Assembly: GCA_947311765.1 (NCBI GenBank)
Contig: CAMZLS010000081.1
Coordinates: 1 to 23,762 of the forward strand
Source of the DNA: an uncultured Helicobacteraceae bacterium
GTDB lineage: Bacteria; Campylobacterota; Campylobacteria; Campylobacterales; Sulfurimonadaceae
Length of the DNA: 23,762 nt
Direction: 5' to 3'
The notes below the pieces were generated by a model. The model made no database searches. It was not told the DNA's origin and saw only the letters and a program-made list of their open reading frames with translations. Shown piece by piece: positions 1 to 22,903 of the stretch. The number at the start of each line of letters is the position of its first letter. Positions within the stretch are counted from its first letter, which is position 1. Made by a program: the position numbers and the translations under genes.

Positions 1-563
1 CAGGGTATATGAAAGTCTATCTAATGAATACCTATCAAGCAGATATGTCAGCCTTTGGTCTGGATGTTTTAGATGAGGGCAATGTAAAGGTTATTGCTGG
101 ATACTTTGGAGCTTTATGTATCTTTGCAGGAGCGGTTCTTCGTCCTGTCGGTGGAAATACTGCTGATAAAATCGGTGGTATCAAGTCTCTTTACTTTTTC
201 TACGGCTCAGTTGCGCTTCTTGTAGCACTGACAGCATTGGTACAATTACCATTTTTTGTAGCTATCTTTGTACTCTTTTTAATTATGGCAAACCTCGGAA
301 TGGCAAACGGTGCAGTTTTTCAACTTGTCCCACAACGCTTTGGAAAAGATATAGGAATTATGACTGGTCTTGTTGGTTGTGCTGGTGGTCTTGGTGGAAC
401 GGCTCTTATTAAAACGCTTGGCTGGTCTAAAGGCGAGTTTGGTGGCTATATGGAAGGCTTCTTAATCTTTTCCGCAGTTGTTATGGTTGCTATTATCGGA
501 CTTAGTTTGGTAAAAACTCGCTGGAGAACAACATGGGGTACAACTGCAGGTGGACGCATCTAA
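1..563 (+). CDS. MFS transporter, C-terminal fragment; the 5' end lies upstream of the window
   Basis: The frame is open from base 1. The 184 translated residues are mostly hydrophobic helices and carry the MFS loop motif G-x-x-x-D-K-I-G-G (RPVGGNTADKIGG). Substrate is not assignable; some resemblance to nitrate/nitrite or oxalate-formate type porters. Confidence 0.6.
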   Translation, partial: GYMKVYLMNTYQADMSAFGLDVLDEGNVKVIAGYFGALCIFAGAVLRPVGGNTADKIGGIKSLYFFYGSVALLVALTALVQLPFFVAIFVLFLIMANLGMANGAVFQLVPQRFGKDIGIMTGLVGCAGGLGGTALIKTLGWSKGEFGGYMEGFLIFSAVVMVAIIGLSLVKTRWRTTWGTTAGGRI

Positions 564-572
564 AACTTCTGT

Positions 573-598
573 CTTACATGTAAAGATTTACATGTAAG
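573..598. repeat. Inverted pair of the palindrome TTACATGTAA (CTTACATGTAAAGATTTACATGTAAG), between the MFS stop and the PP2C-kinase start; candidate terminator or operator
   Basis: Seen directly. Two exact TTACATGTAA copies at 574-583 and 588-597 form a 12-bp-arm hairpin with a 2-nt loop. It lies 10 nt after the stop at 563 and 33 nt before the ATG at 631. Confidence 0.7.
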
Positions 599-630
599 GA
601 TTTTGTTGTAATAATATTCAAAGGTTCTTT

Positions 631-2268
631 ATGCTTAAAATTCATGCTACTCAATTTGTTCTGCCAAAAGCTTCTGGTGTCAAGGGTGATGATGCCTGTA
701 AATATGAAATTATTGATAACGAACTCCTTATCGCAGTTCTTTGTGATGGAGTTGGAAGTGCCGCACGTGGTGGAGCAGCAGCGCGTCAAAGTGTAAAATT
801 TTTTACAGATCAGTTCAAAATTCGTCCTAAAAATTGGAGCATAGAGCAGACACTTATTACCTTCACAAAGCATATTAACCGTCTTCTTTTTAAAGAATCT
901 ATGACCCAATATGAACAGATAGAACTTCTAACGACACTTTGTGTTGCAGTTGTAGAAGGTGACAAGCTCTATACGCTCAATCTCGGCGATTCTCATATCT
1001 ATCTACAAAACAATAATGAACTCACACTCTTAAGCGTTGATCATGTTATGGATAAAGAAAATATGAGCCATGTTCTTACACAAGCATGTGGCTTAAGCGA
1101 AAATATTGATCCTGAAGTCAAAGTTACGGGTATTAAAAAGGGTGATCGACTTATACTTTGTAGTGATGGTGTTTACAATATAACAGACGACTCTTATCTT
1201 AACGAACAGATTTCAAAAGGTCTCAGCGCAAAACTTATTATTAAGTCTATTACAAAAGATTATAAAGACAATGAGCGTGATGATGCTTCTATGCAGATTT
1301 TTACTATTGAAGAATTAAGTCAAATATGTACACTCAAAAACCTCAATCTTCCTATTCCTGAAGAACTGAAAAAAGGTGATATCATAGATGGCTATGAACT
1401 TGTAGAACCGATGATGCAACATCGCCGTATCTGGAAAGTTCGCAAAAAAGAGACTATTCTTGTGATGAAATTTCCAATGAGCGCTGATGACGAACAATCT
1501 TTAGAAGAGTTTGTACGAGAAGCTTGGTATGCAAAGCAGATTCACCACCGCTCTTTTGGAAACGCATGGATACCTGAGAAGCGAACGTCACGCTATTACC
1601 TTATGGAACTTGTAGAGGGAAATAATTTAGAAACTTTTTTAAATAGCAAGCATCTCTCTATTGATAATGCTATCGCTCTAGCTAAATTTTTACATAAAGC
1701 AGAGGCACATCTGCTTCACTTAGGGCTTGTGCATGGTGATATAAAACCTGAAAATATTATTGTTTATAGTGAGGCTGATACGGCTAAAACAGTTTTTAAG
1801 ATGGTTGATTTTGGCTCTATTGTAGAGATTTTTTCTACTGATACACGAGCAGGAACACCAACATATCTGGCGCCAGAGCGTTTTAATGAAGCTAATATTA
1901 ACGAATCCACAGAAATTTTCTCTATCGGTGTCACGCTCTATTGGGCACTGACGAGAAAGTATCCTTACGGTGAAATAGAGCCTTTTCAAACACCATCTTT
2001 TAAACAGCCAAGGCCTCCAAGCCACTACAATAAAAATATTCCAGATTGGTTTGATTCCATCATTCTGCGTGCCATCGCGATAAACCCAAAAGAGCGTTAC
2101 GCCCACTATAGTGAATTTTTCTATGAGTTAAAATCTCCCGAAAATGTAAAGCCATTTTTTCGCAAAAATGCCCCTCTTCTTGAGCGAGACCCTCTTCTTT
2201 TTTATAAAACAGCTTTTTTTACGCTTTTAGGAATTGATGTGATAATTCTTATGTTGTTGATTTCTTAG
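631..2268 (+). CDS. Bifunctional PP2C-type Ser/Thr phosphatase / Hanks-type Ser/Thr protein kinase fusion with a C-terminal transmembrane anchor
   Basis: N-terminal half has PP2C motifs (LCDGVGSAARGG, LGDSHIY, LILCSDGVYN). C-terminal half has kinase motifs (VMK lysine, hinge E in YYLMELVEG, catalytic loop HGDIKPEN, DFG, TPTYLAPE). Last about 20 aa are hydrophobic (FFTLLGIDVIILMLLIS). SD AAGG lies 6 nt upstream of the ATG. Confidence 0.75.
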   Translation: MLKIHATQFVLPKASGVKGDDACKYEIIDNELLIAVLCDGVGSAARGGAAARQSVKFFTDQFKIRPKNWSIEQTLITFTKHINRLLFKESMTQYEQIELLTTLCVAVVEGDKLYTLNLGDSHIYLQNNNELTLLSVDHVMDKENMSHVLTQACGLSENIDPEVKVTGIKKGDRLILCSDGVYNITDDSYLNEQISKGLSAKLIIKSITKDYKDNERDDASMQIFTIEELSQICTLKNLNLPIPEELKKGDIIDGYELVEPMMQHRRIWKVRKKETILVMKFPMSADDEQSLEEFVREAWYAKQIHHRSFGNAWIPEKRTSRYYLMELVEGNNLETFLNSKHLSIDNAIALAKFLHKAEAHLLHLGLVHGDIKPENIIVYSEADTAKTVFKMVDFGSIVEIFSTDTRAGTPTYLAPERFNEANINESTEIFSIGVTLYWALTRKYPYGEIEPFQTPSFKQPRPPSHYNKNIPDWFDSIILRAIAINPKERYAHYSEFFYELKSPENVKPFFRKNAPLLERDPLLFYKTAFFTLLGIDVIILMLLIS

Positions 2269-2720
2269 CCTAAAATTTTATGATTACTATCTATATTTGT
2301 TATTTTAAGGTGATAATTGATACCCTTTTTAAAAGAAGAGCCTATTAAAGAAATTATCAAAAATAAAAATCAAATACCTACTGAAATTGATTACGACACA
2401 CCATCTTTCACAAGATATAAAACTAAATTTCCGAAAGATTGGTTGTCACTAAAAGAAACTTAGGTTAGTTTTGGCATGGGACGAATTAAGACAAGAGGAC
2501 TTGCTTGATGATTGTTTTTTATTATTAAAATTTGACAATGAAGAAGAATTTTTTTTGATGTAAAACCATATGTTTACATTCAATATAAAAATCCAAATAG
2601 CCACAGAGACACTCTCTTGCCAAAACCTACCTCTAAATCTCTTTTTTTATTGCTATAACCACAATATTGTAGTATATAATTATGGTTGCATCAGTAATTT
2701 TTCATTTAAATCCAAATAAA

Positions 2721-2750
2721 CTTGACAGATGAATTTTAAGTATTATACTA
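2721..2750 (+). promoter_or_regulatory. Possible sigma70-like promoter for the desaturase gene (TTGACA ... TATAAT-like)
   Basis: TTGACA at 2721-2726 is followed by AT-rich -10-like hexamers (TATACT/TATAAT) about 17-21 nt downstream. The region is very AT-rich, so many alternatives exist. Confidence 0.25.
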
Positions 2751-2794
2751 TATAATTATCCAATTATTAACAAAGCATTATATAAAGGATAGCG

Positions 2795-3949
2795 ATGGCA
2801 CATACATATACACCGTATGAAGATATAGACAAGGGGAAACTTCAAGAAGATATTGAAGCTATAAAAAAGAATTTAGACCCTGTAAATTGGGAAGATTTTC
2901 AACATTTACTCAAACTTGAACGCTGGGGAAGAGGCGCTACTTTGAGTGGATTTTTTATCATTTTTGTTATTAGCTTTTTAGAAATAAATAGTTTTGTATT
3001 TTGGTCTTTTGCTCTTATTGCAGCTATACTTATTGGTGTTGGAAATGTGGCAAGATGGGCAAATGTTACACACCCTATCTTGCATGGTGCTTACGATAAG
3101 GTGCCAAATATCCCTCACAAATATACAAAAGCGGGTTATGCGCGTGGTTGGAGACGTTTTATCCACTGGTCTGATTGGATTAAGCCTGAGGCTTGGGAAT
3201 ATGAGCACAATATCATGCACCACTACCATTTAGGTGAATTAGATGACCCTGATAATGTGGAAGCAAACCTCCAATGGCTTGTAAAATCTAAAATCCCAAT
3301 GTGGCTACGCTACGCTATCGTTTATGCTTTTGCAACAACATGGAAATATACTTATTACGCCCCAAATACTTTACGAATTTTAGAAAATAAAGAGCGTCGC
3401 AAACGCAAAGAGCCAGAAATATATGATTATGAGATGAGCCCTTTTACAAAAAATGGTTTAGAATTGTGGAAAAATTACTATCTTCCTTATGGAATTATCC
3501 AGTTTGTTATTCTTCCCTTTCTCTTCTTTCCACTTGGAATGGAAGCGGTACTCAACGCTTTTATTATCTTAGTCATGGCAGAAGTTTTTGCCAATCTTCA
3601 CTCCTTTTTAGTGATTGTTCCTAACCACTCTGCTGGAGATATCTATATGTTTAATGAACCACATAAATCTCAAGGTGAATTTTACCTCCGTCAAATTATG
3701 GGAAGCGTAAACTACAACACAGGAACTGACCTTATCGACTTTGCGCATGGCTTTTTAAACTATCAAATAGAGCATCACCTCTTCCCAAATATGCCACACA
3801 GCTTTTATCAAAAAATGCAACCTATCGTAAAAAATATTTGTAAAGAGCACAATCTTGAATACCGCCAAGAGAGCGTTTGGAGACGAATATACTTATCTAT
3901 CGAACTGATGGTTGGAAACTCAAAAGCATTGCGAGTAAATGGTGTCTAG
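2795..3949 (+). CDS. Membrane fatty-acid desaturase family protein (di-iron, His-box)
   Basis: Three His boxes are present (HGAYDK region, HNIMHHYH, QIEHHLFP). Multiple TM segments. The QIEHH third box is typical of front-end or sphingolipid-type desaturases. SD AAAGGAT precedes the ATG. Confidence 0.85.
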   Translation: MAHTYTPYEDIDKGKLQEDIEAIKKNLDPVNWEDFQHLLKLERWGRGATLSGFFIIFVISFLEINSFVFWSFALIAAILIGVGNVARWANVTHPILHGAYDKVPNIPHKYTKAGYARGWRRFIHWSDWIKPEAWEYEHNIMHHYHLGELDDPDNVEANLQWLVKSKIPMWLRYAIVYAFATTWKYTYYAPNTLRILENKERRKRKEPEIYDYEMSPFTKNGLELWKNYYLPYGIIQFVILPFLFFPLGMEAVLNAFIILVMAEVFANLHSFLVIVPNHSAGDIYMFNEPHKSQGEFYLRQIMGSVNYNTGTDLIDFAHGFLNYQIEHHLFPNMPHSFYQKMQPIVKNICKEHNLEYRQESVWRRIYLSIELMVGNSKALRVNGV

Positions 3950-4805: not shown

Positions 4806-4995
4806 CTACACTAGCAAATCCCTATGAATTTAAATATTTCAAGAAATAACTTTCTTGGCACTTATCTCTTTATTTGCCACTCTTTTTGGCTACAATACTA
4901 CCTAAAAAGAGTGAGGTACTTTTCTATGCCAAAATGGATACGCATAAGCGTTGGGTTTTTACTGCTTTATAGCGCACTGCTTATTACTGCTTGCG

Positions 4996-5874
4996 ATGGG
5001 ATTCGTCATGCCCTCTAAAAAAGAGTTTACAAGCGCTTCTCGTTACACTCCTGATAAGCAGAAAAAAAAGTTTGTCACTGCTACGCCTGCTTTAAGTGGG
5101 GTTTTGCTTCTGCTTGTCGGGGTGAATTATCTCTCTTTAAGTGTTCAGGCTTTGGCAAAGGCTGAGAGTTTTTACTTTATAAGCACCTTAGCGATTTTTG
5201 CCACCTATGTGCTTGCTTTTGTTCTGCTAAGACGTGGCTTGGCGCTTGAGAAGATTTATAATGACTCGAAATATGCTAAAGCACCAAAATATCCCCTTAA
5301 AACCATAGCTGGCTCACTTCTTGCTCTCTCTACGGTCTATAGCGCTAGCTTTGGTGAATATTCTCTTTTTCCTGCTTTAATGCTTGGATTGAGTGTGCTT
5401 TTGGGTTGGTATCTTTATTATGGTTTTGATCCGCGTGAAGATAAGATTGATGGGTATGAGACCTCAAAATCTGCAGAACGGATTATGAAACTCTTAATTC
5501 AGGCAAGAGAAGATATTGACGCTATCAAAAAAAATGCAACAGAGTTAGAGGGCGGAGACATTCAAGATGCGATAAATACTACCGCCTTAGCCTTTGAAAA
5601 GATGGTTAAACATATCGAAGAGGAGCCTGATGATTATGATAGGGCTCGAAAATATCTTGTCAGCTATCTTGGTGAAGTCAGACAGATGTGTGAAACCTTT
5701 GTCAAACTAGACAAGCGAGGCAAGTCAGAGAGTATGAAAACATCTTTTTTAGAGACCTTACATGTAAGCATTGAAAATCTCGATACACAGTACGAGAAGC
5801 TTTTAGATGAGGATATGGTGAGCTTGGATATCAAGCTTTCGGTGATGAAAAAACGACTACAAAATGAGGAGTAG
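4996..5874 (+). CDS. Membrane protein with N-terminal TM helices and a C-terminal coiled-coil domain; XpaC-like (5-bromo-4-chloroindolyl phosphate hydrolysis protein family), tentative
   Basis: The ORF is open from a TTG at 4951. The first ATG is 4996 and the next is 5008 (MPSKKEF). About 4 hydrophobic helices are followed by a charged helical C-terminus. It sits immediately 5' of a TelA-like gene, as in Bacillus xpaC-yaaN. The family call is from memory of that architecture. Confidence 0.4.
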   Translation: MGFVMPSKKEFTSASRYTPDKQKKKFVTATPALSGVLLLLVGVNYLSLSVQALAKAESFYFISTLAIFATYVLAFVLLRRGLALEKIYNDSKYAKAPKYPLKTIAGSLLALSTVYSASFGEYSLFPALMLGLSVLLGWYLYYGFDPREDKIDGYETSKSAERIMKLLIQAREDIDAIKKNATELEGGDIQDAINTTALAFEKMVKHIEEEPDDYDRARKYLVSYLGEVRQMCETFVKLDKRGKSESMKTSFLETLHVSIENLDTQYEKLLDEDMVSLDIKLSVMKKRLQNEE

Positions 5875-6979
5875 CATAGTGGAAATGAAACAAGAGTTAG
5901 AGAAAATAGAAGTTCAAGACGAGCACTCAGTAGGTGCTTTGGTAGAGAAGATAGATTTAAGTTCAAGCGCGTCTATTATCCATTTTGGAGCAGATGCCCA
6001 AGAGGAGTTGACGACAGTTTCATCGGCTATGCTTGAGGGCGTTAAGGGCAAAGATTTAGGAGAGGCTAGTGGACCGCTATTAAATATGATAGCGACTATC
6101 AAAGGTTTTGATGTTGCCGCGCTTGATCCAAATAAGAAGCTCAGTTTTTTTGACAAACTCTTAGGTCGCGCTAAGCCTCTTGTCATGTTTTTGGAAAAAT
6201 ATGAAGATACAAAAGAGCAGATAGAGGCGATAACAGATGAACTAGAGAAGCAAAAAGGGACACTCTTAAATGATATAGAATCTCTTGATCGCCTCTATGA
6301 TGCAAATCTCAACTATATTCATGAGCTAGAAAATTATATCGTCGCTGGTGGCAAGAAGATAGAGCATCTTGATAGCACAGAGATACCACTTTTAGAGACA
6401 AAAGCCACAGAGAGTGACAATATGCTTGAAGCCCAAGAGCTCAAAGACTTACGCGCTTCTCGTGATGATTTTGAGAGACGGGTACATGACTTGATGCTGA
6501 CTCGCCAAGTGGCACTGCAGGCACTTCCATCTATCCGCCTTGTTCAAGATAATGACAAAACCTTGATAAACAAGATAAACTCAACACTTGTAAATACCGT
6601 GCCACTATGGAAAAATCAACTCGCACAGACGATTACGATTTACAGAAATCAAAAAGCAGGTGGTGTGCTTAAAGAGGCGATGGACTTAACCAACGAGCTT
6701 TTAGAAGCCAATGCGAAAAACCTCAAAGAGGCAAATCGTCAGACGCGAGAACTTGCAGAGCGTGGTGTTTTTGATATAGAGAGTATTAAGCTTGCCAATA
6801 AGCTTCTTATTGAGACCATAGAAGATGGTATTATGATAGCTGATGAGGGCAAAAAAGCTCGTGCGAAAGCTGAAGCAGAACTAGTAGGTTTAGAACAAGA
6901 GCTCAAAGATGCTCTTGTAGCGACTCAGGTGCACAAAGAGCGTTTAGACAAATCAAAAGAGATAGCTAAGGAGGCGTAG
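5864..6979 (+). CDS. TelA-like toxic-anion-resistance family protein
   Basis: A 371-aa all-helical protein with a conserved N-terminal region (IIHFGADAQEEL ... ) and long coiled-coil stretches typical of the TelA/KlaA/YaaN family. It overlaps the upstream gene by 11 nt. Alternative starts lie at GTG 5879 or ATG 5885, after GAGGAG. Confidence 0.6.
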   Translation: MRSSIVEMKQELEKIEVQDEHSVGALVEKIDLSSSASIIHFGADAQEELTTVSSAMLEGVKGKDLGEASGPLLNMIATIKGFDVAALDPNKKLSFFDKLLGRAKPLVMFLEKYEDTKEQIEAITDELEKQKGTLLNDIESLDRLYDANLNYIHELENYIVAGGKKIEHLDSTEIPLLETKATESDNMLEAQELKDLRASRDDFERRVHDLMLTRQVALQALPSIRLVQDNDKTLINKINSTLVNTVPLWKNQLAQTITIYRNQKAGGVLKEAMDLTNELLEANAKNLKEANRQTRELAERGVFDIESIKLANKLLIETIEDGIMIADEGKKARAKAEAELVGLEQELKDALVATQVHKERLDKSKEIAKEA

Positions 6980-6980
6980 C

Positions 6981-8090
6981 ATGGGATTTTTTGATAAAAT
7001 AATGGGTGAGTTTATTGATGTTATTGAGTGGACTGATGGCTCCAATGATACGATGGTGTACCGTTTTGAGCGTTATGGCAATGAGATAAAGCATGGAGCA
7101 AAGCTGACTGTACGTGAGTCACAAGTGGCAGTTTTTGTCAACGAAGGGGAGATAGCAGATATCTTCGAGCCAGGCATCTATGAGCTAGAGACGCAAAATA
7201 TGCCGATAATGACAACACTTAATCACTGGGATCACGCTTTTAACAGCCCTTTTAAAGCGGAGGTCTATTTCTTTAATCTTCGCCGTTTTGTGGATCTTAA
7301 ATGGGGCACAAAAAACCCTCTTATGCTTCGAGATAAAGAGTTTGGACCTGTACGTATCCGCGCCTTTGGTACTTATGGTATCAAGATAGAAGAGCCTGAA
7401 ACTTTCTTAAAAGAGATAGTGGGAACTGATGGGTATTTTACTGTTGATGAGGTGAGCGACCAACTGCGAAATCTTATCGTTTCACGCTTTGCCACTATCG
7501 TAGGACAGGCAAATATCCCTATCTTGGACTTGGCTGCTAACTATGAGCAGATGAGTGAGTTTGTAGAGGAGAAAATCTCTCCAGAATTTAGTGCATATGG
7601 GCTGGAACTCACTAAACTTCTGATAGAAAATATCTCCCTCCCACCAAAAGTCGAAGAGGCACTCGATAAACGCACAGGCATGGGACTAACGGGCAACCTT
7701 GATGATTATCTCAAGTATCAAGCAGCCGAGGCTTTGAGCAGTTCAGGCTCAGGCAGCGGCGCAGCAGGTGATGCTATGGGTATGGGTATGGGTTTTGCAA
7801 TGGCACAGCAGATGGCAAACTCTTTAGGCGCGAACAACGCTTCACAGCCTCAATCGCACGCTACGCCGCCGCCACCACCAATTCCCAAAGCACAAACCTA
7901 CCACTTCGCTATAAACGGAGCATCCAAAGGCCCGATGACGATAGAGCAGATAAAAACAGCGATTCGTAGTGGGGAGATAGAAAAAGAGACTCTTGCGTGG
8001 CGCGAGGGGATGAGTGGCTGGGAGAAAGCGCAAGATGTAGATAATCTTAGCACTCTTTTCGGCTCTATGCCACCACCGATACCGAGCTAG
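6981..8090 (+). CDS. SPFH (band-7)-like domain protein with a C-terminal GYF-like DUF4339 domain; YdjI-like / COG4260 'virion core protein-like'
   Basis: N-terminus MGFFDKIMGEFIDVIEW...RESQVAVFVNEGEI...PGIYELET matches the YdjI-type SPFH family. It has a Gly/Ser/Met-rich linker and a PPPPP stretch. The C-terminal YHFAINGASKGPMTIEQIKTAIRSGEIEKETLAWREGMSGWEKAQDV is a DUF4339-type module. Start is 2 nt after the upstream stop. Confidence 0.65.
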   Translation: MGFFDKIMGEFIDVIEWTDGSNDTMVYRFERYGNEIKHGAKLTVRESQVAVFVNEGEIADIFEPGIYELETQNMPIMTTLNHWDHAFNSPFKAEVYFFNLRRFVDLKWGTKNPLMLRDKEFGPVRIRAFGTYGIKIEEPETFLKEIVGTDGYFTVDEVSDQLRNLIVSRFATIVGQANIPILDLAANYEQMSEFVEEKISPEFSAYGLELTKLLIENISLPPKVEEALDKRTGMGLTGNLDDYLKYQAAEALSSSGSGSGAAGDAMGMGMGFAMAQQMANSLGANNASQPQSHATPPPPPIPKAQTYHFAINGASKGPMTIEQIKTAIRSGEIEKETLAWREGMSGWEKAQDVDNLSTLFGSMPPPIPS

Positions 8091-8092
8091 TT

Positions 8093-9154
8093 ATGAAAAA
8101 AGAGTATATATTTCCTTGCGAGCAGTGTGGCGCGAAACTCAACTACTCCGTAGCTACTGGTGAGCTTACTTGCCCTTACTGTTCGCATGTAAATAAGATA
8201 GAGAGAGCTTTTTCTCAAGTTGTAGAGAAAGATTATGAAAAAGCACTCCAAGAGCTAAAAAATTTCAGTGAACATCCAAGTGAGATAACAAGCTCAAAAT
8301 GCCCGACTTGTGCGGCAACTTTTGAGTTAAGTGAAGATATCCACGCCTCAGAGTGCCCTTTTTGTGGCAGTGCAGTTGTCAATGAAGTCTCACGCTACAG
8401 ACCGATAAAACCCCAAGCACTGCTCCCTTTTGCCATAGATAAGAAAAAAGCAAAAATACTTTTCAAAGAGTGGCTCAAAGGGCGATGGTTTGCTCCAAAT
8501 AAACTCAAAGAGTATAGTGCAGAAGATAGTACCTTAGAGGGAATATTTGTGCCGTACTGGACCTATGATGCAGATACTCATAGCCGTTATAGTGGGCGTA
8601 GGGGTGATGCTTACTATGTGAGTGAGAGCTATACAGAAAATGGTGTAAGCAAAACAAGACGAGTTGAAAAGATACGCTGGAGTAGTGTCAGCGGAGAGTT
8701 AAGCAAAAATTTTGATGATGTTTTAGTGGTTGCTACGAATTCACAAACAAATGCTTCGTATAATTGGGATTTGAAAAACTTAGTCGATTATGATGAAGGA
8801 TTTTTAAGTGGCTATGAGAGTGAGGTCTATTCGGTAGAGCTAGATGATGGACTTAAAAGTGCTAAAACAACTATGACATATCACATACGAGAGGCAGTCA
8901 AACGCCAAATAGGAGGCGATAGACAAGAGATAAGCTCATTAAATAGCGACTTTTTCAATATCACTTTCAAGCATATACTCCTCCCAGTCTATGCCTCTGC
9001 TTTCAAGTTTGATGGAAAAGTATATAGCTATATCATCAATGGAAGAAATGGAGAGATAAGCGGAGAGAGACCATATAGTGTTATTAAGATAACTTTTGCG
9101 GTTCTTAGTGCTTTAGTTATAGGTGGTGCGATTTACTATTTTTCAAATCAATAA
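8093..9154 (+). CDS. Double zinc-ribbon protein with a C-terminal transmembrane anchor (YdjG-like partner of SPFH proteins, tentative)
   Basis: Two CxxC...CxxC ribbons (CEQCGAKL..CPYCSH; CPTCAATF..CPFCGS), a central domain, and the C-terminal helix VIKITFAVLSALVIGGAIYYF. Start is 3 nt after the upstream stop. Confidence 0.5.
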   Translation: MKKEYIFPCEQCGAKLNYSVATGELTCPYCSHVNKIERAFSQVVEKDYEKALQELKNFSEHPSEITSSKCPTCAATFELSEDIHASECPFCGSAVVNEVSRYRPIKPQALLPFAIDKKKAKILFKEWLKGRWFAPNKLKEYSAEDSTLEGIFVPYWTYDADTHSRYSGRRGDAYYVSESYTENGVSKTRRVEKIRWSSVSGELSKNFDDVLVVATNSQTNASYNWDLKNLVDYDEGFLSGYESEVYSVELDDGLKSAKTTMTYHIREAVKRQIGGDRQEISSLNSDFFNITFKHILLPVYASAFKFDGKVYSYIINGRNGEISGERPYSVIKITFAVLSALVIGGAIYYFSNQ

Positions 9155-10530
9155 TAAATCTTCATCTTTTCAGGATATGTTATCGTATAAATAACATTCA
9201 TCTTTTTACTTGTATTGCCTTTGATATCGGCTATGATGGTAAGCTTACCCGTTTTTGTATCATACTTATAAGGAAGATCTAGTTTTTCAAGGCTTACTTC
9301 TATCTCTTCTTGTGTTGAGAGTGGGATGCGTTCTGTGATGATAACTTTTTTATCTTTATCAGAACGATTTGTGAGAGTGAGTCTAAAGCCCTCTTTTTTA
9401 ACTCTTGCAGAGCTAAAGATACTCTTGTCTTGAGAAAACTCATGGATAGTCTCTTTTTTTGTTTCCATATCATAATCTATAGCAACATTGAGTAAAATCT
9501 TTGTACCATCCTTGCGAATTGGGGCATTTTCTATGAGTTGTCCTTTGTGACGTACCTTCCACTGTCGTGACTCTATGGTCTGTTTTGGAGTGAAACTTGC
9601 TGTTTTATATACATTGCTACTATTATAAGGGTGCCAAGTGAGTGTAGTGTTGATAGTGAGCTTTTCGCTATCAAGAGGAAGTTTTTTCTCTTTAGCATCT
9701 GAAGCGAGAGTAAGATTTTTGAGGTGGTAGCTTCGCGTCTCTAGTTTTTTTACATGGTAGCTATTTTCAGCAACAGGAGCAGGAGCCGCTGCCATTAGCA
9801 CCATATCTTGTCGCACAGCTCTTTTGGCTTTCATCTGTGCTTGTGCAATACGAATTTTTCTAGGATAAAACTGTGTTGGTGCGCTGATATAGCCTGCTGG
9901 TTTTGCAAAAAGTCTCACTTCTTCTGCCTCTATATCTATGCCAGAGGCATTGCTTAAAAGGAGTGAGTGTTGCAGTTTTGAGCTGTCCATATCCAAAAGA
10001 TATTCACTATGGAAGTAGAGTCCGCGGTTGATAGTGAGTTGTACTTTGGATTTTGGTATATCTGCATAAAAGAGAGGCTCTTTGCTTGGAGCATGTTTGG
10101 AAAACAGAGCACTTGCATTTTGTATCTCTTTTTGAAGATTTTGACTCTCTTGGGCTATTTTTGCCATACGTGAAGCGATTGTGCTTGCTGTTTTTATGGT
10201 ATTTTGAGCATCTATGTTTGTATCTGGAGCGTATTGGGAGATGATGGTATCTAAGATATTTTGCTCTTTTTTGAGTCTATCAAGCCTTACATGTAAGCCT
10301 TGTAGATGAGTGTATTGTGTGCATAGGCTACTCTTTGTCTTACAACTATTTCTTCTTATAAGCCCCAAGGAACCTTCTGAATTTTTAGCTTTTAAGTTTG
10401 TATTAAAACCTATAAAACTCTCTTTGGGTTCGTAGGTATAAAAACTTCTATCAGAGTAGATATCAAGAGATGAAGCAAGGAGTGCGATTTGACTTAGTGA
10501 TATGATGATAACTGAGAGGCGAAGTGACAT
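9148..10530 (-). CDS. Secreted/periplasmic protein of unknown function with a signal peptide and coiled coil; possibly a DUF4139/DUF4140 (MuiA-like) family member
   Basis: N-terminus MSLRLSVIIISLSQIALLASS is a signal peptide. 460 aa with long helical Q/K-rich stretches followed by a beta-rich C-terminal half. The family guess is weak. Convergent 7-nt overlap with the upstream + gene. Confidence 0.55.
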   Translation of the reverse strand: MSLRLSVIIISLSQIALLASSLDIYSDRSFYTYEPKESFIGFNTNLKAKNSEGSLGLIRRNSCKTKSSLCTQYTHLQGLHVRLDRLKKEQNILDTIISQYAPDTNIDAQNTIKTASTIASRMAKIAQESQNLQKEIQNASALFSKHAPSKEPLFYADIPKSKVQLTINRGLYFHSEYLLDMDSSKLQHSLLLSNASGIDIEAEEVRLFAKPAGYISAPTQFYPRKIRIAQAQMKAKRAVRQDMVLMAAAPAPVAENSYHVKKLETRSYHLKNLTLASDAKEKKLPLDSEKLTINTTLTWHPYNSSNVYKTASFTPKQTIESRQWKVRHKGQLIENAPIRKDGTKILLNVAIDYDMETKKETIHEFSQDKSIFSSARVKKEGFRLTLTNRSDKDKKVIITERIPLSTQEEIEVSLEKLDLPYKYDTKTGKLTIIADIKGNTSKKMNVIYTITYPEKMKIYY

Positions 10531-12754: not shown

Positions 12755-14729
12755 ATGAAATCTACTAAAATGGGGGGGGGCACTTTTTGTCCTATTGATA
12801 TCATTGCAGTGTAATGCGATAGCTGATAACCAAAATGTACTTAATGCAAAAGCAAAAACTTTTGAGAATGTATCCTTAGATATCGCACAAAGAGATGTTT
12901 TTTTATTAGAGTTAAATGAAAAATATAAAGTTAAGGATGTTGCCAATAAAGTGTCCACAAAATTACTAAAAGTATTGTTGGATAATAAAACAATAAATAT
13001 AGCAGTTGACCTTTTTATTAGTGATGATGTAAATGATTTTACATATACAAAAAATAACAAATATATTAACGCACAAGCAACATATACTTTTAATTTAGAT
13101 ACTAACAAATCGTCATATACTTTAAATGGTGAAAAAAGTATTGATGATTCTATTGCTCAGTATATGGTTGCACAAGAGTTCTTTTTTGCAGAAAAAAAGA
13201 GACTTCGAGAAGAGAAGCGTCAGAAAAATATTAAAAAAATTACTTTAATTTTAAAAAATAATAAGAAAATAAACGCTTTATTAAGTTCTACGTCTGATTA
13301 TGTGAGCATTAATCTTGATAAACATGAACTAGCAAAGCTTCTTAAAGAGGCTGGAGATGCAATTAACGCATATGATATCCATAGTAAATTAACACCATCA
13401 AATACTGCTGCAGAGTGGGATAATAGTCGTAATGGATATTTACAAGGAGTTTCTATAACACAAATGCATGGAGTATGGAATGATTACTTTCCAAATACTA
13501 GAGGTGAAAATATTGCTATTTATTACTCAGATGCACATTGCCCCAATAATGGAAATGATTTGTATTATGGCTATGTTGCAACAACAGGAGCTTGCCAAGA
13601 AGTAGGAAACCTTAACGATGAGGACACAGGTGCAGGGTATCATACACGAATTATAACTGGAATTCTTAGTACAGTTGCTAATGAAGTGAATTTGCTTTGT
13701 AATGATCATGCTAGAGATAGCAGTGATGTAGATAGCCGTTTACCAACTGCTATGGGAAATATAAATATTGAAACATATAGTTTAAATAACTATAATGATA
13801 ATACCTTATCATACAAAAATATTGATGTTGCATTTGATCACCATGCATTTAATAATCGTACAATTCCAGTATTTGTATCAGCTGGTAATAAATTGGATGA
13901 ACTGAATCCAGACAATCACGTTTTATCTCCAGCAAAAGCTTTTAATATTACTACTGTAGGTTCGTACGGGAGAGATGCTGTAGCTGGTACTTTAAGTTGG
14001 TCGAACTTTTCAAGCAATGTTAATCCTGAGACTATAATTGGAAATAGGACTATTCAAAAACCTGAAGTGTCTGGACCAGGAGAACATTTCCATTGTGCTG
14101 ATATTGTAGGTGATGATAGTTGTCATGAACTCTTTAATGAAGATTCTGGAACAAGTTTTGCAACTCCATGGATTGCGGCTATGGCTGCAGATGCTATGTC
14201 TCGTGGGTCATACTGGAGAAGTAGTGCAGCTATGGTCAAAGCTTTAGTTATTTCTGGTGCTTCAGACCCAATTGCAGGTACAAGAGATGAAGTAGGTGAA
14301 GGTGGGGTTGATCTTTTTACAATGACTTGGCAAAATACTAATAGTGGTTATTGGTATGATGCAAATCCTTCAGAGCCATTTAGTGGTACTAATCCAAGCC
14401 AGTTTGATTATAATAACAACTGCTTTACTAATTGGCAAACTCAATTATATGATGGAAGAGATCAACGGATAGTTATTTCTTGGCTTAATGATATTACTAA
14501 TGCCACAACATTGAGTAATATACCAAATAGCTATAGCTTAGAACTGATTAACTCAAATGGTTCTGTTGTTGAAAGCACTTCAGAAGATACACAAGGGTAC
14601 CAAATTATAAATACTAATCAGCCCGCAGGACTTTATACTGTTAGGGTGTGTAAGCTTAGACAGAATTCCTCTCAACGTTTTGATATGGGATTTTCAGTAT
14701 CACAAAGGACAACTCAATGGTGGGATTAA
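12755..14729 (+). CDS. Subtilisin-like (S8 family) serine peptidase with a signal peptide. It is frameshifted at a G9 tract in this sequence (phase OFF); it is in frame with G8 or G11. The in-frame portion begins at TTG 12795
   Basis: SD AAGGGG (12744-12749) is 5 nt upstream of ATG 12755. With 9 G the reading MKSTKMGGGTFCPIDIIAV stops. Removing one G gives MKSTKMGGALFVLLISLQCNA|IADNQ..., a signal peptide continuous with the 644-aa ORF. S8 motifs: FVSAGNKLD (oxyanion Asn) and DSGTSFATPWIAAMAA (catalytic Ser). Confidence 0.7.
12772..12780 (+). repeat. Homopolymeric G9 tract (candidate slipped-strand phase-variation switch) in the 5' coding region of the S8 protease
   Basis: Seen directly. Nine consecutive G in a genome segment of about 33% GC. 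Confidence 0.9.
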
Positions 14730-15665: not shown

Positions 15666-16613
15666 ATGTATAAAAAAATAGAAGCAATAAAATCAGAAAT
15701 TTCAAAAGTAGTAGTTGGTCAAGATAAGATGATTGACGGATTATTAATCGGTCTTTTATGTGAAGGGCATATTCTTATAGAGGGTATTCCAGGTCTTGCT
15801 AAGACAACTACAGTTAAAGCACTTTCCGAGAGTTTGGGTCTTGGGTTTAAGCGTGTTCAGTTTACCCCTGACTTGTTGCCATCAGATATTTTAGGAGCAG
15901 AGATTTATGATCCTAAGAGTAATGAGTTTAAAATCAAACACGGTCCAATTTTTACAAACCTTCTCCTTGCAGATGAGATTAACCGTGCACCAGCAAAGGT
16001 ACAATCAGCACTGCTTGAAGTGATGCAAGAGCGTCAAGTGACTATTGGTGAAGAGAGTTTTAAACTTACTCCTCCATTTTTTGTTATGGCTACGCAAAAT
16101 CCAATAGAACAAGAGGGTGTCTATCAACTTCCAGAAGCGCAACTAGACCGTTTTATGATGAAGCTTAATATTGGCTATAACACGCAAGAAGAAGAGTTAG
16201 AGATAGCAAGACGTATCGCCAACAAACAGAGTGAAACAATAAAAGCTGTCGTAACACTCGAAGAGATTGAAGCACTCAAACAAGCAGTCTCTGAAGTGCA
16301 TGTAGATGAAGAGGTCGAAAAATACATTATTGAACTTGTTCAAGCTACGCGTAATCCTGAAAACTATGGTTTAAAAGAGATGAAAGAGCATATTCAGTTT
16401 GGTGCTTCTCCTCGTGTAAGTATTGATATGTTCAAGGCCGTTAAAGCGATGGCATATCTTCGTGGCAAAGATTTTGTAACACCTGTTGATATCGCTTATA
16501 TTGCCAAAGATATGATGCGCCACCGTATCGTTTTGAGCTATGAAGCAGAAGCAGAAGGTATCACAACTGACCAGATTATAGAAAATGTACTCAAAGCGGT
16601 GCCTATCCCCTAA
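15666..16613 (+). CDS. moxR: MoxR-family AAA+ ATPase
   Basis: Walker A GIPGLAKTT, Walker B LLADEINRA, sensor and arginine-finger regions. Canonical MoxR length (315 aa). Confidence 0.95.
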   Translation: MYKKIEAIKSEISKVVVGQDKMIDGLLIGLLCEGHILIEGIPGLAKTTTVKALSESLGLGFKRVQFTPDLLPSDILGAEIYDPKSNEFKIKHGPIFTNLLLADEINRAPAKVQSALLEVMQERQVTIGEESFKLTPPFFVMATQNPIEQEGVYQLPEAQLDRFMMKLNIGYNTQEEELEIARRIANKQSETIKAVVTLEEIEALKQAVSEVHVDEEVEKYIIELVQATRNPENYGLKEMKEHIQFGASPRVSIDMFKAVKAMAYLRGKDFVTPVDIAYIAKDMMRHRIVLSYEAEAEGITTDQIIENVLKAVPIP

Positions 16614-17443
16614 TGTCAAAGCTTCAAAAAATCCTTGTCCGCGCACGCCGACAAGTCTTTTCAGAGATGGTGGGAAACAATCCTTCTATCTTTCAAGGCG
16701 AGGGTTACGATTTTATCGAGATGCGTGAATACAATCACGGAGATGATATTCGCCATATTGATTGGAATGTTACCGCGAAGATGCAGCGTCCCTACATCAA
16801 AATTTTTCGTGAAGAGCGAGAGTTAAATGTAGTGATGGCATCTATGCTTAATGGTTCCGTTCACTTTGGAAGTAAGAAGTTCAAACAAGAGACTATTGCG
16901 GAGCTTGTTGCGCTGCTTAGTTTCTCAGTTTTACGCAATGGCGACTTGTTGAGTCACTATATCTTTGCTGATAAGATGTATCAAAATGATAAGCCTAGTA
17001 AAAAGATGTTTGCAGTGCAAAAGTATGTAGAGTCTATTTTAGAATTTGATGCTTTAAATAAAAAAGCAGATTATAAAATGATGGCAGACACTCTCTATAA
17101 ACGTCTTAAAAGAAAATCACTGCTTATTATCATAGGTGACTTTTTCGAGATACCTGATTTTCGTCTTTTGGCGAAAAAACATGAAGTTATTGCGGTAATT
17201 GTTCGTGATAAATTAGAAGAAAATCCTCCAGTGATGGGTTTTAGCTCACTAAGTGATCCAGAATCAGGGCAGATGCTAGAGGGTGATTTTAACCGCAGTA
17301 GTGTAAATGCTTATGCGCAAAAAGTGGCAGAGCATGACCGTAAACTGTTTGAGCGTTTTCGTAAAGATCAGGTACATTTTACAAAAATATATACAGACGA
17401 TGTAGCAAGTGTGAAGCTCCGTCGTCTCTTTGAGGGGAGATAA
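16613..17443 (+). CDS. DUF58 domain protein (MoxR partner, VWA-like)
   Basis: DUF58 signature GDDIRHIDWNVTAKMQRPYIKIFREERELNVVM. TAATG stop/start overlap with moxR. Confidence 0.85.
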   Translation: MSKLQKILVRARRQVFSEMVGNNPSIFQGEGYDFIEMREYNHGDDIRHIDWNVTAKMQRPYIKIFREERELNVVMASMLNGSVHFGSKKFKQETIAELVALLSFSVLRNGDLLSHYIFADKMYQNDKPSKKMFAVQKYVESILEFDALNKKADYKMMADTLYKRLKRKSLLIIIGDFFEIPDFRLLAKKHEVIAVIVRDKLEENPPVMGFSSLSDPESGQMLEGDFNRSSVNAYAQKVAEHDRKLFERFRKDQVHFTKIYTDDVASVKLRRLFEGR

Positions 17444-17887
17444 ATGGATATTTCAAAATTACCAAAATTACCACTCTCTAAGCCACTTCCTAGTGCTCCT
17501 GATATTCCTTTGCATGATATCAAGCCACTTGTAGAGATAAGTGATTATTCACTCTATTATCTCTCGGCTCTTATTGCTCTAGGTCTTATTATTCTTTTAG
17601 CCCTTGCATTTTTCGCTTGGAGGTATTGGAGTCAAAAAAATCGTTACACCACTCGAAAAGAGCACTTCGAGCGTTTACAAAATATAGATTTTTCTCATCC
17701 CAAAAATGCAGCCTATGCTATCACAAAATATGGCTATACCTTTTCTCAAGATGGAGAGCGTCAGCATGAGACATATGAGAATCTTTTATCACGCTTAGCC
17801 CCTTACAAATATAAAAAATCAGTTGATGCTATAGACGATGAGGCTAAGGGCTATTTTAATATTTATCTGGAGATGATTGATGTTTGA
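17444..17887 (+). CDS. Small single-pass membrane protein (position equivalent to the DUF4381-type gene of Bat operons)
   Basis: Pro-rich N-terminus, then the TM helix YYLSALIALGLIILLALAFFAW. Begins 1 nt after the upstream stop. Confidence 0.5.
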   Translation: MDISKLPKLPLSKPLPSAPDIPLHDIKPLVEISDYSLYYLSALIALGLIILLALAFFAWRYWSQKNRYTTRKEHFERLQNIDFSHPKNAAYAITKYGYTFSQDGERQHETYENLLSRLAPYKYKKSVDAIDDEAKGYFNIYLEMIDV

Positions 17888-22109: not shown

Positions 22110-22144
22110 TCTAATATAGGCAATTTAAAAAGATTAAAAATACT

Positions 22145-22867: not shown

Positions 22868-22903
22868 TGTATAATATTTCCACTTTTATTTAAGGGAGTG
22901 TAA

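What the first reader, a model, noticed from the sequence alone, without database searches (positions are those of the whole stretch)
631..2268. Single polypeptide combining a PP2C phosphatase and a Hanks Ser/Thr kinase, tail-anchored in the membrane
Both domains keep their catalytic signatures: metal-binding Asp residues in the PP2C part; Lys, catalytic-loop Asp (HGDIKPEN), DFG and APE in the kinase part. Opposing activities on one chain with a C-terminal TM anchor imply a self-resetting signalling switch. The neighbourhood (transporter upstream, desaturase downstream) shows no obvious FHA-domain or substrate partner. The inverted TTACATGTAA pair sits in its 5' region.
Basis: partly seen in the sequence, partly recalled or inferred. 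Interest (0 to 1): 0.6.

Follow-up and report, generated by a model that had tools for sequence, protein, structure and literature searches.

The report
Membrane-anchored phosphatase-kinase beside nitrate transporter
The gene really encodes one membrane-anchored protein with an apparently intact protein phosphatase and protein kinase, but it belongs to a widespread, already annotated and still uncharacterised bacterial family that usually sits right after a nitrate/nitrite transporter gene, which is therefore its likeliest target.

Summary
ORF 631-2268 (+) encodes 545 aa: an N-terminal PP2C phosphatase (Pfam PF13672, E 5e-18), a Hanks-type kinase (PF00069, E 3e-24) and a C-terminal hydrophobic helix. 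All PP2C metal-binding Asp and all kinase catalytic residues are conserved across the family. The exception is the Gly-rich loop, which the whole family lacks.

It is not new. More than 3000 full-length homologues keep the fusion. NCBI names them "bifunctional protein-serine/threonine kinase/phosphatase". The architecture was reported in 2005 (Pseudomonas PA1782 type) and, in the papers I could search, nobody has characterised it.

A NarK-family nitrate/nitrite transporter gene lies immediately upstream here and in Sulfuricurvum, Beta- and Gammaproteobacteria, usually inside nas/nirBD clusters. These transporters share an invariant cytoplasmic tail, RWRTTWG. In an unbiased metagenome scan, 31 of 42 such transporter genes had this kinase gene nearby.

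My best reading, which is inferred and not shown, is reversible Ser/Thr phosphorylation of the transporter. This resembles plant NRT2.1 Ser501 and the PP2C CEPH.

The TTACATGTAA pair forms a terminator-like hairpin. The palindrome itself is over-represented across the window (8 sites against 0.03 expected) and remains unexplained.

The parts
3..563 (+). 3' part (about 186 codons) of a NarK-family nitrate/nitrite MFS transporter gene, cut off by the window start
   Evidence: Pfam MFS_1. The best NCBIfam hit is TIGR00886 NarK family, E 5.6e-19 on the fragment. The full-length gene of the 82%-identity relative L001 and the Sulfuricurvum transporter L004 give E 6e-68 and 9e-74, which is below the curated cut-off (230-249 against 311.7 bits).
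519..539 (+). Codons for RWRTTWG in the transporter's cytoplasmic C-terminal tail (VKTRWRTTWGTTAGGRI*). This is the candidate phospho-acceptor motif.
   Evidence: The motif is identical in the transporter genes that sit next to this kinase family in Campylobacterota, Pseudomonas, Methylomonas and three Betaproteobacteria, although the transporters are only about 45% identical overall.
572..609 (+). Terminator-like hairpin. The 12-bp stem is built from two TTACATGTAA palindromes (574-583 and 588-597) around an AGAT loop, followed by ATTTTGTTGT.
   Evidence: Terminator scan. RNA fold gives -14.5 kcal/mol, z = -2.7, with 1 of 200 shuffles folding as well.
587..615 (+). Promoter-like site for the kinase gene (TTTACA, 17 nt spacer, AATAAT, with TG). 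The TTTTGTTGTAAT stretch at 601-612 aligns with TTTTGCTAYAAT in relatives.
   Evidence: Promoter scan. The same extended -10-like box is kept upstream of the kinase ATG in L001, L209 and L210, even where the upstream gene differs.
631..2268 (+). Gene for the 545-aa bifunctional PP2C phosphatase / Hanks Ser/Thr kinase (PA1782-type family)
631..1314 (+). PP2C (PPM) phosphatase domain, aa 1-228. Metal ligands are D21, D39/G40, D120, D179/G180 and D217.
   Evidence: Pfam PF13672. The best solved relative is tPphA, E 7e-10, with D39~D34, D120~D119 and D179~D193. Foldseek gives a target-normalised TM-score of 0.83 to tPphA. Residue invariance is shown.
1393..2145 (+). Hanks-type kinase domain, aa 255-505: K280, E297, H368-G-D370, K372, N375, D393-F-G395, A414-P-E416, R489. 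No Gly-rich loop.
   Evidence: Pfam PF00069. PDB sequence matches to Stk1 and PknB. Foldseek gives a target-normalised TM-score of 0.82 to PknB.
2191..2265 (+). C-terminal hydrophobic helix (aa 521-545) acting as a tail anchor. It is preceded by the conserved PLLERDP...(Y/W)K juxtamembrane motif.
   Evidence: Hydropathy. AF2 helix 521-544 with pLDDT above 90. A hydrophobic C-terminus is present in 98% of 347 family members.
2795..3949 (+). FA_desaturase-family membrane protein. It is the downstream neighbour only in close (genus-level) relatives.
   Evidence: Pfam PF00487. It follows the kinase gene in L001, L209 and L210 (71-90% identical) but not in any more distant locus.

Best explanation
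Shown: the gene encodes a tail-anchored, cytoplasm-facing enzyme of the PA1782-type "bifunctional protein-serine/threonine kinase/phosphatase" family. It has an N-terminal PP2C domain, a Hanks kinase domain with a non-canonical glycine-free nucleotide-binding loop, and one C-terminal transmembrane helix.

Inferred: it belongs functionally to the nitrate/nitrite uptake module. The anchor holds both activities at the inner membrane next to the NarK-family transporter encoded just upstream. The kinase domain would phosphorylate a cytoplasmic Ser/Thr site of that transporter. The best candidate is the invariant C-terminal tail RWRTTWG. The PP2C domain would remove the phosphate. Transport activity would then be set by the kinase-to-phosphatase ratio of one protein rather than by two separately expressed enzymes.

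The input signal is unknown. A cytoplasmic nitrogen-status cue is likely, because the protein has no periplasmic domain.
For: Identity and architecture:
- Domain matches.
- Catalytic residues are invariant in relatives down to 24% identity.
- The AF2 model has pLDDT 88.6.
- Foldseek gives target-normalised TM-scores of 0.82 to PknB and 0.83 to tPphA.
- The hydrophobic tail is family-wide.

Linkage to the transporter:
- A NarK-family MFS gene lies directly upstream on the same strand in the window and in the 82% relative L001-3.
- In Sulfuricurvum L004/5 the transporter stop codon abuts the kinase ATG, and nitrite reductase and siroheme genes lie nearby.
- Pseudomonas L006 has nasS-nasT-nasA-kinase-nirB-nasC.
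- In Pseudomonas L007 a NarK homologue lies directly upstream on the same strand.
- Colwellia L011 has nirB-nirD-NarK-kinase.
- All three betaproteobacterial loci looked up have the pair inside nirBD/nasC clusters.
- The pair is divergently adjacent in Methylomonas L010.
- An unbiased scan for RWRTTWG codons found 48 genuine NarK tails. Of the 42 with at least 600 nt downstream, 29 had the kinase gene downstream on the same strand (26 within 220 nt) and 2 had it elsewhere in the locus.

The tail: it is invariant across phyla although the transporters are only about 45% identical.

Literature:
- Pseudomonas sp. UW4 has nasST-nasA-ppkB-nasDEC (PMC3596284).
- Plant NRT2.1 belongs to the same transporter family. 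It is switched off by C-terminal Ser501 phosphorylation and switched on by the PP2C CEPH (PMC10944928).
Against: - No biochemical or genetic data exist for any family member. PA1782 was still "predicted" in 2024 (PMC11197903).
- The two closest relatives, L209 (89% identical) and L210 (80%), lack a NarK gene next to the kinase.
- Two family loci, L008 (next to an Amt ammonium transporter) and L009, also lack it.
- 11 of 42 RWRTTWG-tail transporter genes have no kinase gene in the available downstream DNA. The tail therefore cannot exist only for an adjacent kinase.
- Colwellia's NarK partner lacks the RWRTTWG tail.
- In this window a terminator-like hairpin and a separate promoter-like site lie between the two genes, so they need not be co-transcribed.
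- The missing Gly-rich loop leaves some doubt about ATP binding.
Confidence: 0.5

Rival explanations
1. It regulates nitrogen assimilation, but the substrate is not the transporter. The kinase/phosphatase would act on another component, such as the NasT/NasS antiterminator pair, nitrate or nitrite reductase, or a PII-type signal protein. The adjacency to NarK would only reflect membership of the nas regulon.
For: - The gene sits within whole nas/nirBD clusters.
- One family member lies next to an Amt ammonium transporter instead (L008).
- The closest solved PP2C by sequence and fold is tPphA, the phosphatase of phosphorylated PII.
- RWRTTWG-tail transporter genes also occur without an adjacent kinase gene.
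Against: - The only neighbour kept across Campylobacterota, Beta- and Gammaproteobacteria is the transporter gene, almost always directly upstream. The other nas genes vary in presence and order.
- Membrane anchoring fits a membrane substrate better than a soluble one.
- The similarity to tPphA is only slightly better than to other bacterial PP2Cs.
Confidence: 0.22
2. One reading: a self-resetting switch. The kinase autophosphorylates and the fused PP2C dephosphorylates it, giving a timed pulse. The downstream target is unknown and unrelated to the neighbouring genes.
For: - Both domains look catalytically competent and sit on one chain.
- By general knowledge, many Hanks kinases autophosphorylate and are reset by a cognate PP2C (PknB/PstP, Stk1/Stp1).
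- The activation segment contains Ser/Thr (S401, T402, T404, T409).
Against: - This clade has HGD, not HRD (17 of 50 and 35 of 86 family members sampled). By general knowledge, non-RD kinases usually do not need activation-loop phosphorylation.
- The model ignores the strong conserved synteny with NarK.
- A futile self-cycle gives no obvious output.
Confidence: 0.13
3. In this genus the functional partner is the downstream FA_desaturase-family membrane protein, so the enzyme controls membrane lipids, and the NarK adjacency is incidental.
For: The desaturase gene follows the kinase gene in all four genus-level relatives (window, L001, L209, L210), including the two that lack NarK upstream.
Against: - The pairing is absent in every more distant family locus. 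It is therefore explained by recent common ancestry; the desaturases are 71-90% identical.
- Each of the two genes has its own promoter-like region.
- In the window a 526-nt spacer separates them, against about 80 nt in relatives.
Confidence: 0.08
4. The kinase domain is a pseudokinase or scaffold because it lacks the GxGxxG loop, or the gene is a PD-T4-6-like anti-phage kinase.
For: - There is no Gly-rich loop, and the Pfam match starts at profile position 22.
- PADLOC PD-T4-6 models hit with E 2e-34.
Against: - K280, E297, D370, N375, D393 and G395 are invariant or nearly so across the family. That pattern is not expected in a pseudokinase.
- The PADLOC hits cover only the generic kinase core (aa 270-505), with scores similar to PknB models.
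- The genomic context is nitrogen assimilation, not a defence island.
Confidence: 0.05

Closest known systems
PA1782 / PpkB-type "bifunctional protein-serine/threonine kinase/phosphatase" (the PP2C + STYK architecture of Krupa & Srinivasan 2005, PMC1262709)
   Same: - Same colinear architecture: PP2C, then kinase, then a C-terminal hydrophobic helix.
- Full-length homology to the Pseudomonas loci (28-29% identity over aa 26-544, E about 1e-60).
- Same upstream NarK/NasA gene (PMC3596284).
- NCBI gives this name to relatives that are 64-82% identical.
   Different: The Campylobacterota clade has HGD/DFG where Beta- and Gammaproteobacteria have HRD/DLG. It also has GDD instead of NED in PP2C motif 1, and a shorter activation segment. 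No member has been characterised, so the function is not defined by the family.
Separate Hanks kinase / PP2C pairs: PknB-PstP (M. tuberculosis), Stk1-Stp1 (Staphylococcus, Streptococcus), PrkC-PrpC (B. subtilis)
   Same: Same two folds and catalytic residues. Both systems use opposing Ser/Thr phosphorylation chemistry at the membrane.
   Different: - Those systems are two polypeptides.
- Their kinase has a mid-chain TM segment and extracellular PASTA sensor domains, plus a normal Gly-rich loop.
- Here the NCBIfam equivalog scores are far below cut-off (108.6 against 450 for PknB/Stk1; 99.3 against 230 for Stp1).
- There is no extracytoplasmic domain at all.
Plant NRT2.1 control by C-terminal Ser501 phosphorylation and the PP2C phosphatase CEPH
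   Same: The proposed target, NarK, is described by general knowledge as belonging to the same transporter family (nitrate/nitrite porters) as NRT2.1. Both cases involve a regulatory site in the cytoplasmic C-terminal tail and a PP2C as the eraser (PMC10944928).
   Different: This is an analogy only. The tail sequences are unrelated, the plant kinase and phosphatase are separate soluble proteins, and nothing has been demonstrated for the bacterial system.
tPphA / PphA, the cyanobacterial PP2C that dephosphorylates PII
   Same: It is the best solved relative of the phosphatase domain by sequence (E 7e-10) and by fold (target-normalised TM-score 0.83). It is also a nitrogen-regulation enzyme.
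   Different: It is a single-domain soluble protein, only about 18-19% identical in the structural alignment. Other bacterial PP2Cs score almost as well.

Membership tests
PP2C / PPM phosphatase (Pfam PF13672 PP2C_2) | Profile match above the curated threshold | tested here: met
   65.8 bits against a cut-off of 24, aa 15-184
PP2C / PPM phosphatase (Pfam PF13672 PP2C_2) | Metal-coordinating Asp residues of motifs 1, 2, 8 and 11, plus the third-metal Asp of motif 5 | tested here: met
   D21, D39-G40, D179-G180, D217 and D120 are invariant or at least 98% conserved in 50 diverse relatives. D39, D120 and D179 align with tPphA D34, D119 and D193.
PP2C / PPM phosphatase (Pfam PF13672 PP2C_2) | PP2C beta-sandwich fold | tested here: met
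   The AF2 model matches tPphA, Stp1 and PstP with target-normalised TM-scores of 0.76-0.84.
PP2C / PPM phosphatase (Pfam PF13672 PP2C_2) | Mn2+/Mg2+-dependent phospho-Ser/Thr phosphatase activity | not testable with these tools
   Needs an enzyme assay
Hanks-type (eukaryote-like) Ser/Thr protein kinase (Pfam PF00069) | Profile match above the curated threshold | tested here: met
   86.3 bits against a cut-off of 31.7, aa 272-490
Hanks-type (eukaryote-like) Ser/Thr protein kinase (Pfam PF00069) | Catalytic residues: beta3 Lys, alphaC Glu, HxD...N catalytic loop, DxG, APE, subdomain XI Arg | tested here: met
   K280, E297, H368/D370/K372/N375, D393/G395, A414-P-E416 and R489 are each at least 92% conserved across the family.
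Hanks-type (eukaryote-like) Ser/Thr protein kinase (Pfam PF00069) | Glycine-rich nucleotide-binding loop GxGxxG (subdomain I) | tested here: not met
   The sequence is VEPMMQHRRIWKV. Columns aligned to aa 256-269 have no Gly in 69 of 86 members and one Gly in 17 of 86. The Pfam match begins at profile position 22. The AF2 model still predicts the beta1-beta2-beta3 strands (255-260, 267-272, 275-280).
Hanks-type (eukaryote-like) Ser/Thr protein kinase (Pfam PF00069) | Bilobal kinase fold | tested here: met
   Target-normalised TM-score 0.82 to the PknB catalytic domain 2fum
PA1782-type bifunctional kinase/phosphatase family | Colinear full-length homology (PP2C, kinase, C-terminal helix) to named members | tested here: met
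   The listed relatives and most are full length at 540-600 aa. Pseudomonas loci match over aa 26-544. NCBI gives this name to relatives that are 64-82% identical.
PA1782-type bifunctional kinase/phosphatase family | Gene lies directly downstream of a NarK/NasA-type transporter gene | tested here: met
   Window 3-563. The same arrangement is seen in L001, L004, L006, L007, L011 and L086-L088. It is not universal: it is absent in L008, L009, L209 and L210.
Stk1/PknB PASTA kinase and Stp1/IreP phosphatase (NCBIfam equivalogs) | Score above the equivalog cut-off and presence of PASTA domains | tested here: not met
   108.6 against 450 bits, and 99.3 against 230 bits. No PASTA domain and no extracytoplasmic region.
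Tail-anchored membrane protein | A single hydrophobic helix within about 25 residues of the C-terminus, no N-terminal signal or TM segment, and basic residues on the cytoplasmic side | tested here: met
   The last 19 aa have a Kyte-Doolittle mean of 2.34, while the best segment elsewhere scores 1.35. AF2 predicts helix 521-544. Basic residues precede the helix (FFRKNAPLLERDPLLFYK). No dedicated TM predictor or insertion assay was available.
PD-T4-6 anti-phage kinase (PADLOC) | Match over the whole model, in a defence-island context | tested here: inconclusive
   E 1.7e-34, but only over the generic kinase core, aa 283-505. The neighbours are transport, stress and nitrogen-assimilation genes.

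The most novel reading that the evidence does not exclude
Bacterial NarK/NasA nitrate transporters are gated after translation by a dedicated tail-anchored kinase-phosphatase that writes and erases phosphate on the invariant cytoplasmic tail RWRTTWG. This would be a prokaryotic counterpart of the plant NRT2.1 Ser501/CEPH switch. It could also be the long-sought mechanism for rapid, for example ammonium-triggered, shut-off of nitrate uptake in Proteobacteria and Campylobacterota.
Probability: 0.3. Interest if true: 0.65.

Novelty: new member of a known kind. Interest (0 to 1): 0.4.

Why it matters
As a sequence feature it is ordinary: one more member of a large, already named family whose fusion architecture was described in 2005.

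The value lies in the functional lead. No member, including P. aeruginosa PA1782, has been characterised. Three observations point to a specific experiment that is cheap to run in Pseudomonas:
- The synteny with NarK-type transporters holds across phyla.
- The enzyme is membrane-anchored.
- The transporter tail carries an invariant Thr-Thr motif.

A positive result would show Ser/Thr phosphorylation controlling a bacterial nutrient transporter. It would also link bacterial and plant nitrate-uptake regulation, which matters for nitrogen cycling by sulfur-oxidising Campylobacterota, Accumulibacter and pseudomonads.

Tried and rejected
- **Profile-guided genome scan.** The scan with the 50-sequence alignment failed because no stretch was conserved enough. 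Only L006-L011 were used as clear family members. The more distant full-length matches L014, L020, L021 and L059 (24-28% identity, mostly Acidobacteriota) were not examined further. Kinase-to-NarK linkage therefore rests on about 14 loci plus the reverse scan.
- **Family-specific model.** NCBIfam has none; only sub-threshold Stk1, Stp1 and MAD6 hits appeared.
- **RNA families.** Rfam found no known RNA family in 1-3000.
- **Fold search.** The AlphaFold database library (afdb50) was unavailable, so no full-length structural match to PA1782 could be shown.
- **Literature.** Two paper queries failed on syntax. Searches for experimental work on PA1782/ppkB or a nitrate-linked PP2C-kinase found only genome-annotation mentions. 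A search for TTACATGTAA found nothing relevant.
- **Defence-system reading.** Rejected: the PADLOC hits cover only the generic kinase core.
- **Frameshift or split-gene idea.** Rejected.
- **Desaturase as conserved partner.** Rejected beyond genus level.
- **AF2 docking of the NarK tail onto the kinase.** Not attempted.
Full report

Yes. The window carries an uninterrupted ORF at 631..2268 on the + strand. It has an ATG start, encodes 545 aa, and is preceded by AAAGG at 620-624. Pfam places PP2C_2 (PF13672) on aa 15-184 (E 5e-18, 65.8 bits, cut-off 24). It places Pkinase (PF00069) on aa 272-490 (E 2.9e-24, 86.3 bits, cut-off 31.7).

The last 19 residues are the only strongly hydrophobic stretch (Kyte-Doolittle mean 2.34, against 1.35 for the next best).

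An AlphaFold2 model built on 86 relatives is confident (mean pLDDT 88.6, pTM 0.69). It shows a PP2C-type sandwich at 1-228, a linker, a bilobal kinase at 255-505 and a terminal helix at 521-544. Foldseek against the PDB gives PknB (target-normalised TM-score 0.82) for one half. For the other half it gives the bacterial PP2Cs tPphA, Stp1 and PstP (0.76-0.84).

**2. Are both halves likely to be active?**

I aligned 50 full-length relatives that are 24-63% identical to the window protein. Conservation was as follows:

| Domain | Residues | Conservation |
|---|---|---|
| PP2C | D21, D120, D179, G180 | invariant |
| PP2C | D39, G40, D217 | 98% |
| Kinase | H368, D370, G395, R489 | invariant |
| Kinase | K280, E297, N375, P415, E416 | 98% |
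| Kinase | D393 | 96% |
| Kinase | A414 | 94% |
| Kinase | K372 | 92% |

D39, D120 and D179 align with the metal ligands D34, D119 and D193 of tPphA, the closest solved PP2C by sequence (E 7e-10). This pattern argues for two working active sites.

The glycine-rich loop is absent in the whole family. The sequence here is VEPMMQHRRIWKV, and the columns aligned to aa 256-269 hold no Gly in 69 of 86 members and one Gly in the rest. Accordingly the Pfam kinase match starts only at profile position 22.

The window's clade also has HGD rather than HRD, so it is a non-RD kinase, and DFG where Beta- and Gammaproteobacteria have DLG.

**3. Is the fusion unusual?**

No. The word-indexed protein search returned more than 3000 hits. 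The best 120 were all 543-562 aa with both domains, and several carry the NCBI name "bifunctional protein-serine/threonine kinase/phosphatase" (Sulfurimonas, Sulfuricurvum, Arcobacter).

An exhaustive HMMER search of 1.8 billion cluster representatives found 283 clusters at E below 1e-30. Most are 540-600 aa and match from about residue 30 to 540. A profile search recovered the same architecture in Accumulibacter, Sulfuriferula, Zoogloea, Herminiimonas and others.

A hydrophobic C-terminus is present in 98% of 347 members, with a median of 2 residues after it.

Krupa and Srinivasan reported the PP2C-plus-kinase architecture in P. aeruginosa, P. putida and D. radiodurans in 2005 and called it uncharacterised (PMC1262709). 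In 2021 and 2024 PA1782 was still listed only as a predicted kinase (PMC8560001, PMC11197903). The halves are therefore not normally separate genes, and this protein is a new member of a known but unstudied family. The window probably comes from a Sulfurimonas-like Campylobacterota genome (37% GC; names).

**4. What is it linked to?**

The upstream ORF (3-563, cut by the window edge) is the C-terminal part of an MFS protein whose best NCBIfam match is the NarK nitrate/nitrite family. Full-length versions in relatives give E 6e-68 to 9e-74, although they score below the curated cut-off.

The same gene lies directly upstream, on the same strand, in these loci:
- The 82% relative L001-3, with a NasC-like molybdoenzyme divergently upstream.
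- Sulfuricurvum L004/5, where the transporter stop codon abuts the kinase ATG and nitrite reductase and siroheme genes are nearby.
- Pseudomonas L006, with nasS-nasT-nasA-kinase-nirB-nasC.
- Pseudomonas L007, where a NarK homologue lies directly upstream.
- Colwellia L011, with nirB-nirD-NarK-kinase. Here the transporter scores above the NarK cut-off.
- All three betaproteobacterial loci I looked up.

In Methylomonas the pair is divergent. The Pseudomonas sp. UW4 genome paper lists nasST-nasA-ppkB-nasDEC-cobA and speculates about transporter phosphorylation (PMC3596284).

There are exceptions. An alphaproteobacterial member sits next to an Amt ammonium transporter, and Pseudomaricurvus has none. 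The two closest relatives of the window protein (89% and 80% identical) have MrpF or LspA upstream instead.

**5. A candidate target site**

The kinase-linked transporters are only about 45% identical between phyla. Even so, all end in VK-x-RWRTTWG-x(5-8)-[RK][IV]. By established MFS topology (12 TM segments, both termini cytoplasmic) this tail faces the cytoplasm, as do the catalytic domains of a tail-anchored enzyme.

To test the link without bias I scanned metagenome contigs for the codons of RWRTTWG:
- 120 stretches were returned, and 48 were genuine NarK tails.
- 42 of those had at least 600 nt of downstream sequence.
- 29 of the 42 carried the PP2C-kinase gene downstream on the same strand, 26 of them within 220 nt.
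- 2 carried it elsewhere in the locus.
- 11 had none.

The link is strong (about 74%) but not obligatory, and the Colwellia-type NarK lacks the tail. The tail is therefore a lead, not a proof.

**6. Most likely mechanism**

The steps below are inferred, not shown. The C-terminal helix tethers both activities to the inner membrane beside the transporter. The kinase phosphorylates a cytoplasmic Ser/Thr, and the two invariant Thr of the tail are the best candidates. The PP2C domain reverses this. Having writer and eraser on one chain makes the output depend on their activity ratio rather than on expression levels. By general knowledge, the nitrogen-regulation enzymes GlnD and GlnE work in this way.

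The protein has no extracytoplasmic domain, so the input must be cytoplasmic or come from the transporter itself. The family-specific invariant block PYGEIEPFQTPxF...P.W in the C-lobe may be a docking or regulatory surface.

The closest worked-out parallel is plant NRT2.1, a member of the same transporter family. C-terminal Ser501 phosphorylation inactivates it and the PP2C CEPH reactivates it (PMC10944928).

Rival readings are these:
- Another nas component or PII is the substrate.
It is weakened by the non-RD catalytic loop and ignores the synteny.
- A genus-specific link to the downstream desaturase. That gene is conserved only in the four closest genomes.
- A pseudokinase. This is contradicted by the invariant catalytic residues.
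- A PD-T4-6-like defence kinase. The PADLOC hits cover only the generic kinase core.

**7. The TTACATGTAA pair**

The two copies (574-583 and 588-597) form a 12-bp stem with an AGAT loop, followed by ATTTTGTTGT. The fold gives -14.5 kcal/mol with z = -2.7. This is a terminator-like structure 9 nt after the transporter stop codon.

A promoter-like site overlaps it (587-615). A TTTTG(C/T)T(A/G)(Y)AAT box is kept upstream of the kinase ATG in L001, L209 and L210, whatever the upstream gene is. In this lineage the kinase gene therefore probably has its own promoter.

The palindrome is not specific to this gene:
- It occurs 8 times in the window against 0.03 expected. Six of the eight sites lie inside ORFs.
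- It occurs 6 times in the 21.6-kb relative L001 against 0.03 expected, and twice each in L209 and L210.
- It is absent from Sulfuricurvum and proteobacterial loci.
- Copies lie just upstream of the kinase ATG in the window, L209 and L001, with a one-mismatch copy in L210. Copies lie just after the kinase stop codon in L001 and L210.

I cannot decide between a regulator's operator, a DNA-uptake-like or methylation-related genome signature, and something else.

**8. Verdict**

It is wrong on novelty and on the absence of a partner, and the "self-resetting" idea is speculative. The feature is a new member of a known, uncharacterised family. The transporter-phosphorylation hypothesis is the part worth testing.

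Noticed in passing
window 574, 588, 4677, 5758, 10287, 19805, 21717, 22095 (exact); 14736, 15662, 20766, 20917 (one mismatch); also L001 4494, 7013, 8106, 9975, 11640, 14887; L209 579, 4245; L210 10902, 20185: The 10-bp palindrome TTACATGTAA is over-represented several hundred-fold in this lineage: 8 sites against 0.03 expected in the window, and 6 against 0.03 in L001. Six of the eight window sites lie inside ORFs, always read as TTA-CAT-GTA (Leu-His-Val). Window sites carry a 5' C (CTTACATGTAA), whereas L001 sites carry a 5' T. All 12 ACATGT hexamers in the window lie within these 12 exact or one-mismatch sites. The motif is absent from Sulfuricurvum and proteobacterial loci. It may be a DNA-uptake-like, methylation-related or global-regulator motif, and is unexplained.
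   Followed up: partly
window 519-563; L001 9501, L004 9956, L006 5861, L007 5852, L010 4469, L086 6896, L087 6799, L088 6858: NarK/NasA-type transporters from three phylum- or class-level groups share an invariant C-terminal tail VK.RWRTTWG...[RK][IV]*, despite only about 45% overall identity. I did not search the papers for this tail motif, so I do not know whether it has been described.
   Followed up: yes
window 2269-2794: The spacer between the kinase stop codon and the desaturase ATG is 526 nt here but only 77-81 nt in L001, L209 and L210. The last 80 nt or so, the desaturase promoter region, match L209. About 445 nt of AT-rich DNA has therefore been inserted. It holds only ORFs of 51 aa or less and no Rfam match.
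   Followed up: partly
window 601-615; L209 about 590-602; L210 about 9215-9227; L001 about 9955-9967: A conserved extended -10-like box (TTTTGCTAYAAT; TTTTGTTGTAAT in the window) lies upstream of the kinase gene in four related genomes, regardless of which gene lies upstream. This suggests the gene has its own promoter.
   Followed up: partly
window 4951-9154: A cluster of Halogen_Hydrol (XpaC-like), TelA, an SPFH/Band-7 protein with a GYF_2 domain, and a zinc-ribbon protein. It looks like a toxic-anion or membrane-stress module.
   Followed up: no
window 15666-23413: A Bat/aerotolerance-like operon (MoxR AAA_3, DUF58, an unknown gene, VWA, VWA-TPR, BatD), followed by a desulfoferrodoxin-N/rubrerythrin fusion and a peroxiredoxin. 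A subtilase-like ORF precedes it at 12795-14729.
   Followed up: no
L001 4171-8042 (- strand); L088 1302-5333: Next to the NarK-kinase pair sits a NasC/formate-dehydrogenase-like molybdopterin subunit, together with a 526-612 aa protein that fuses a 4Fe-4S (Fer4_11) domain to a DmsC-like membrane anchor. This is an unusual membrane-anchored partner for what looks like an assimilatory-type nitrate reductase.
   Followed up: no
L008 3578-7566: An alphaproteobacterial family member lies divergently next to an Amt ammonium transporter instead of NarK. This hints that the family may serve nitrogen transporters more generally.
   Followed up: no
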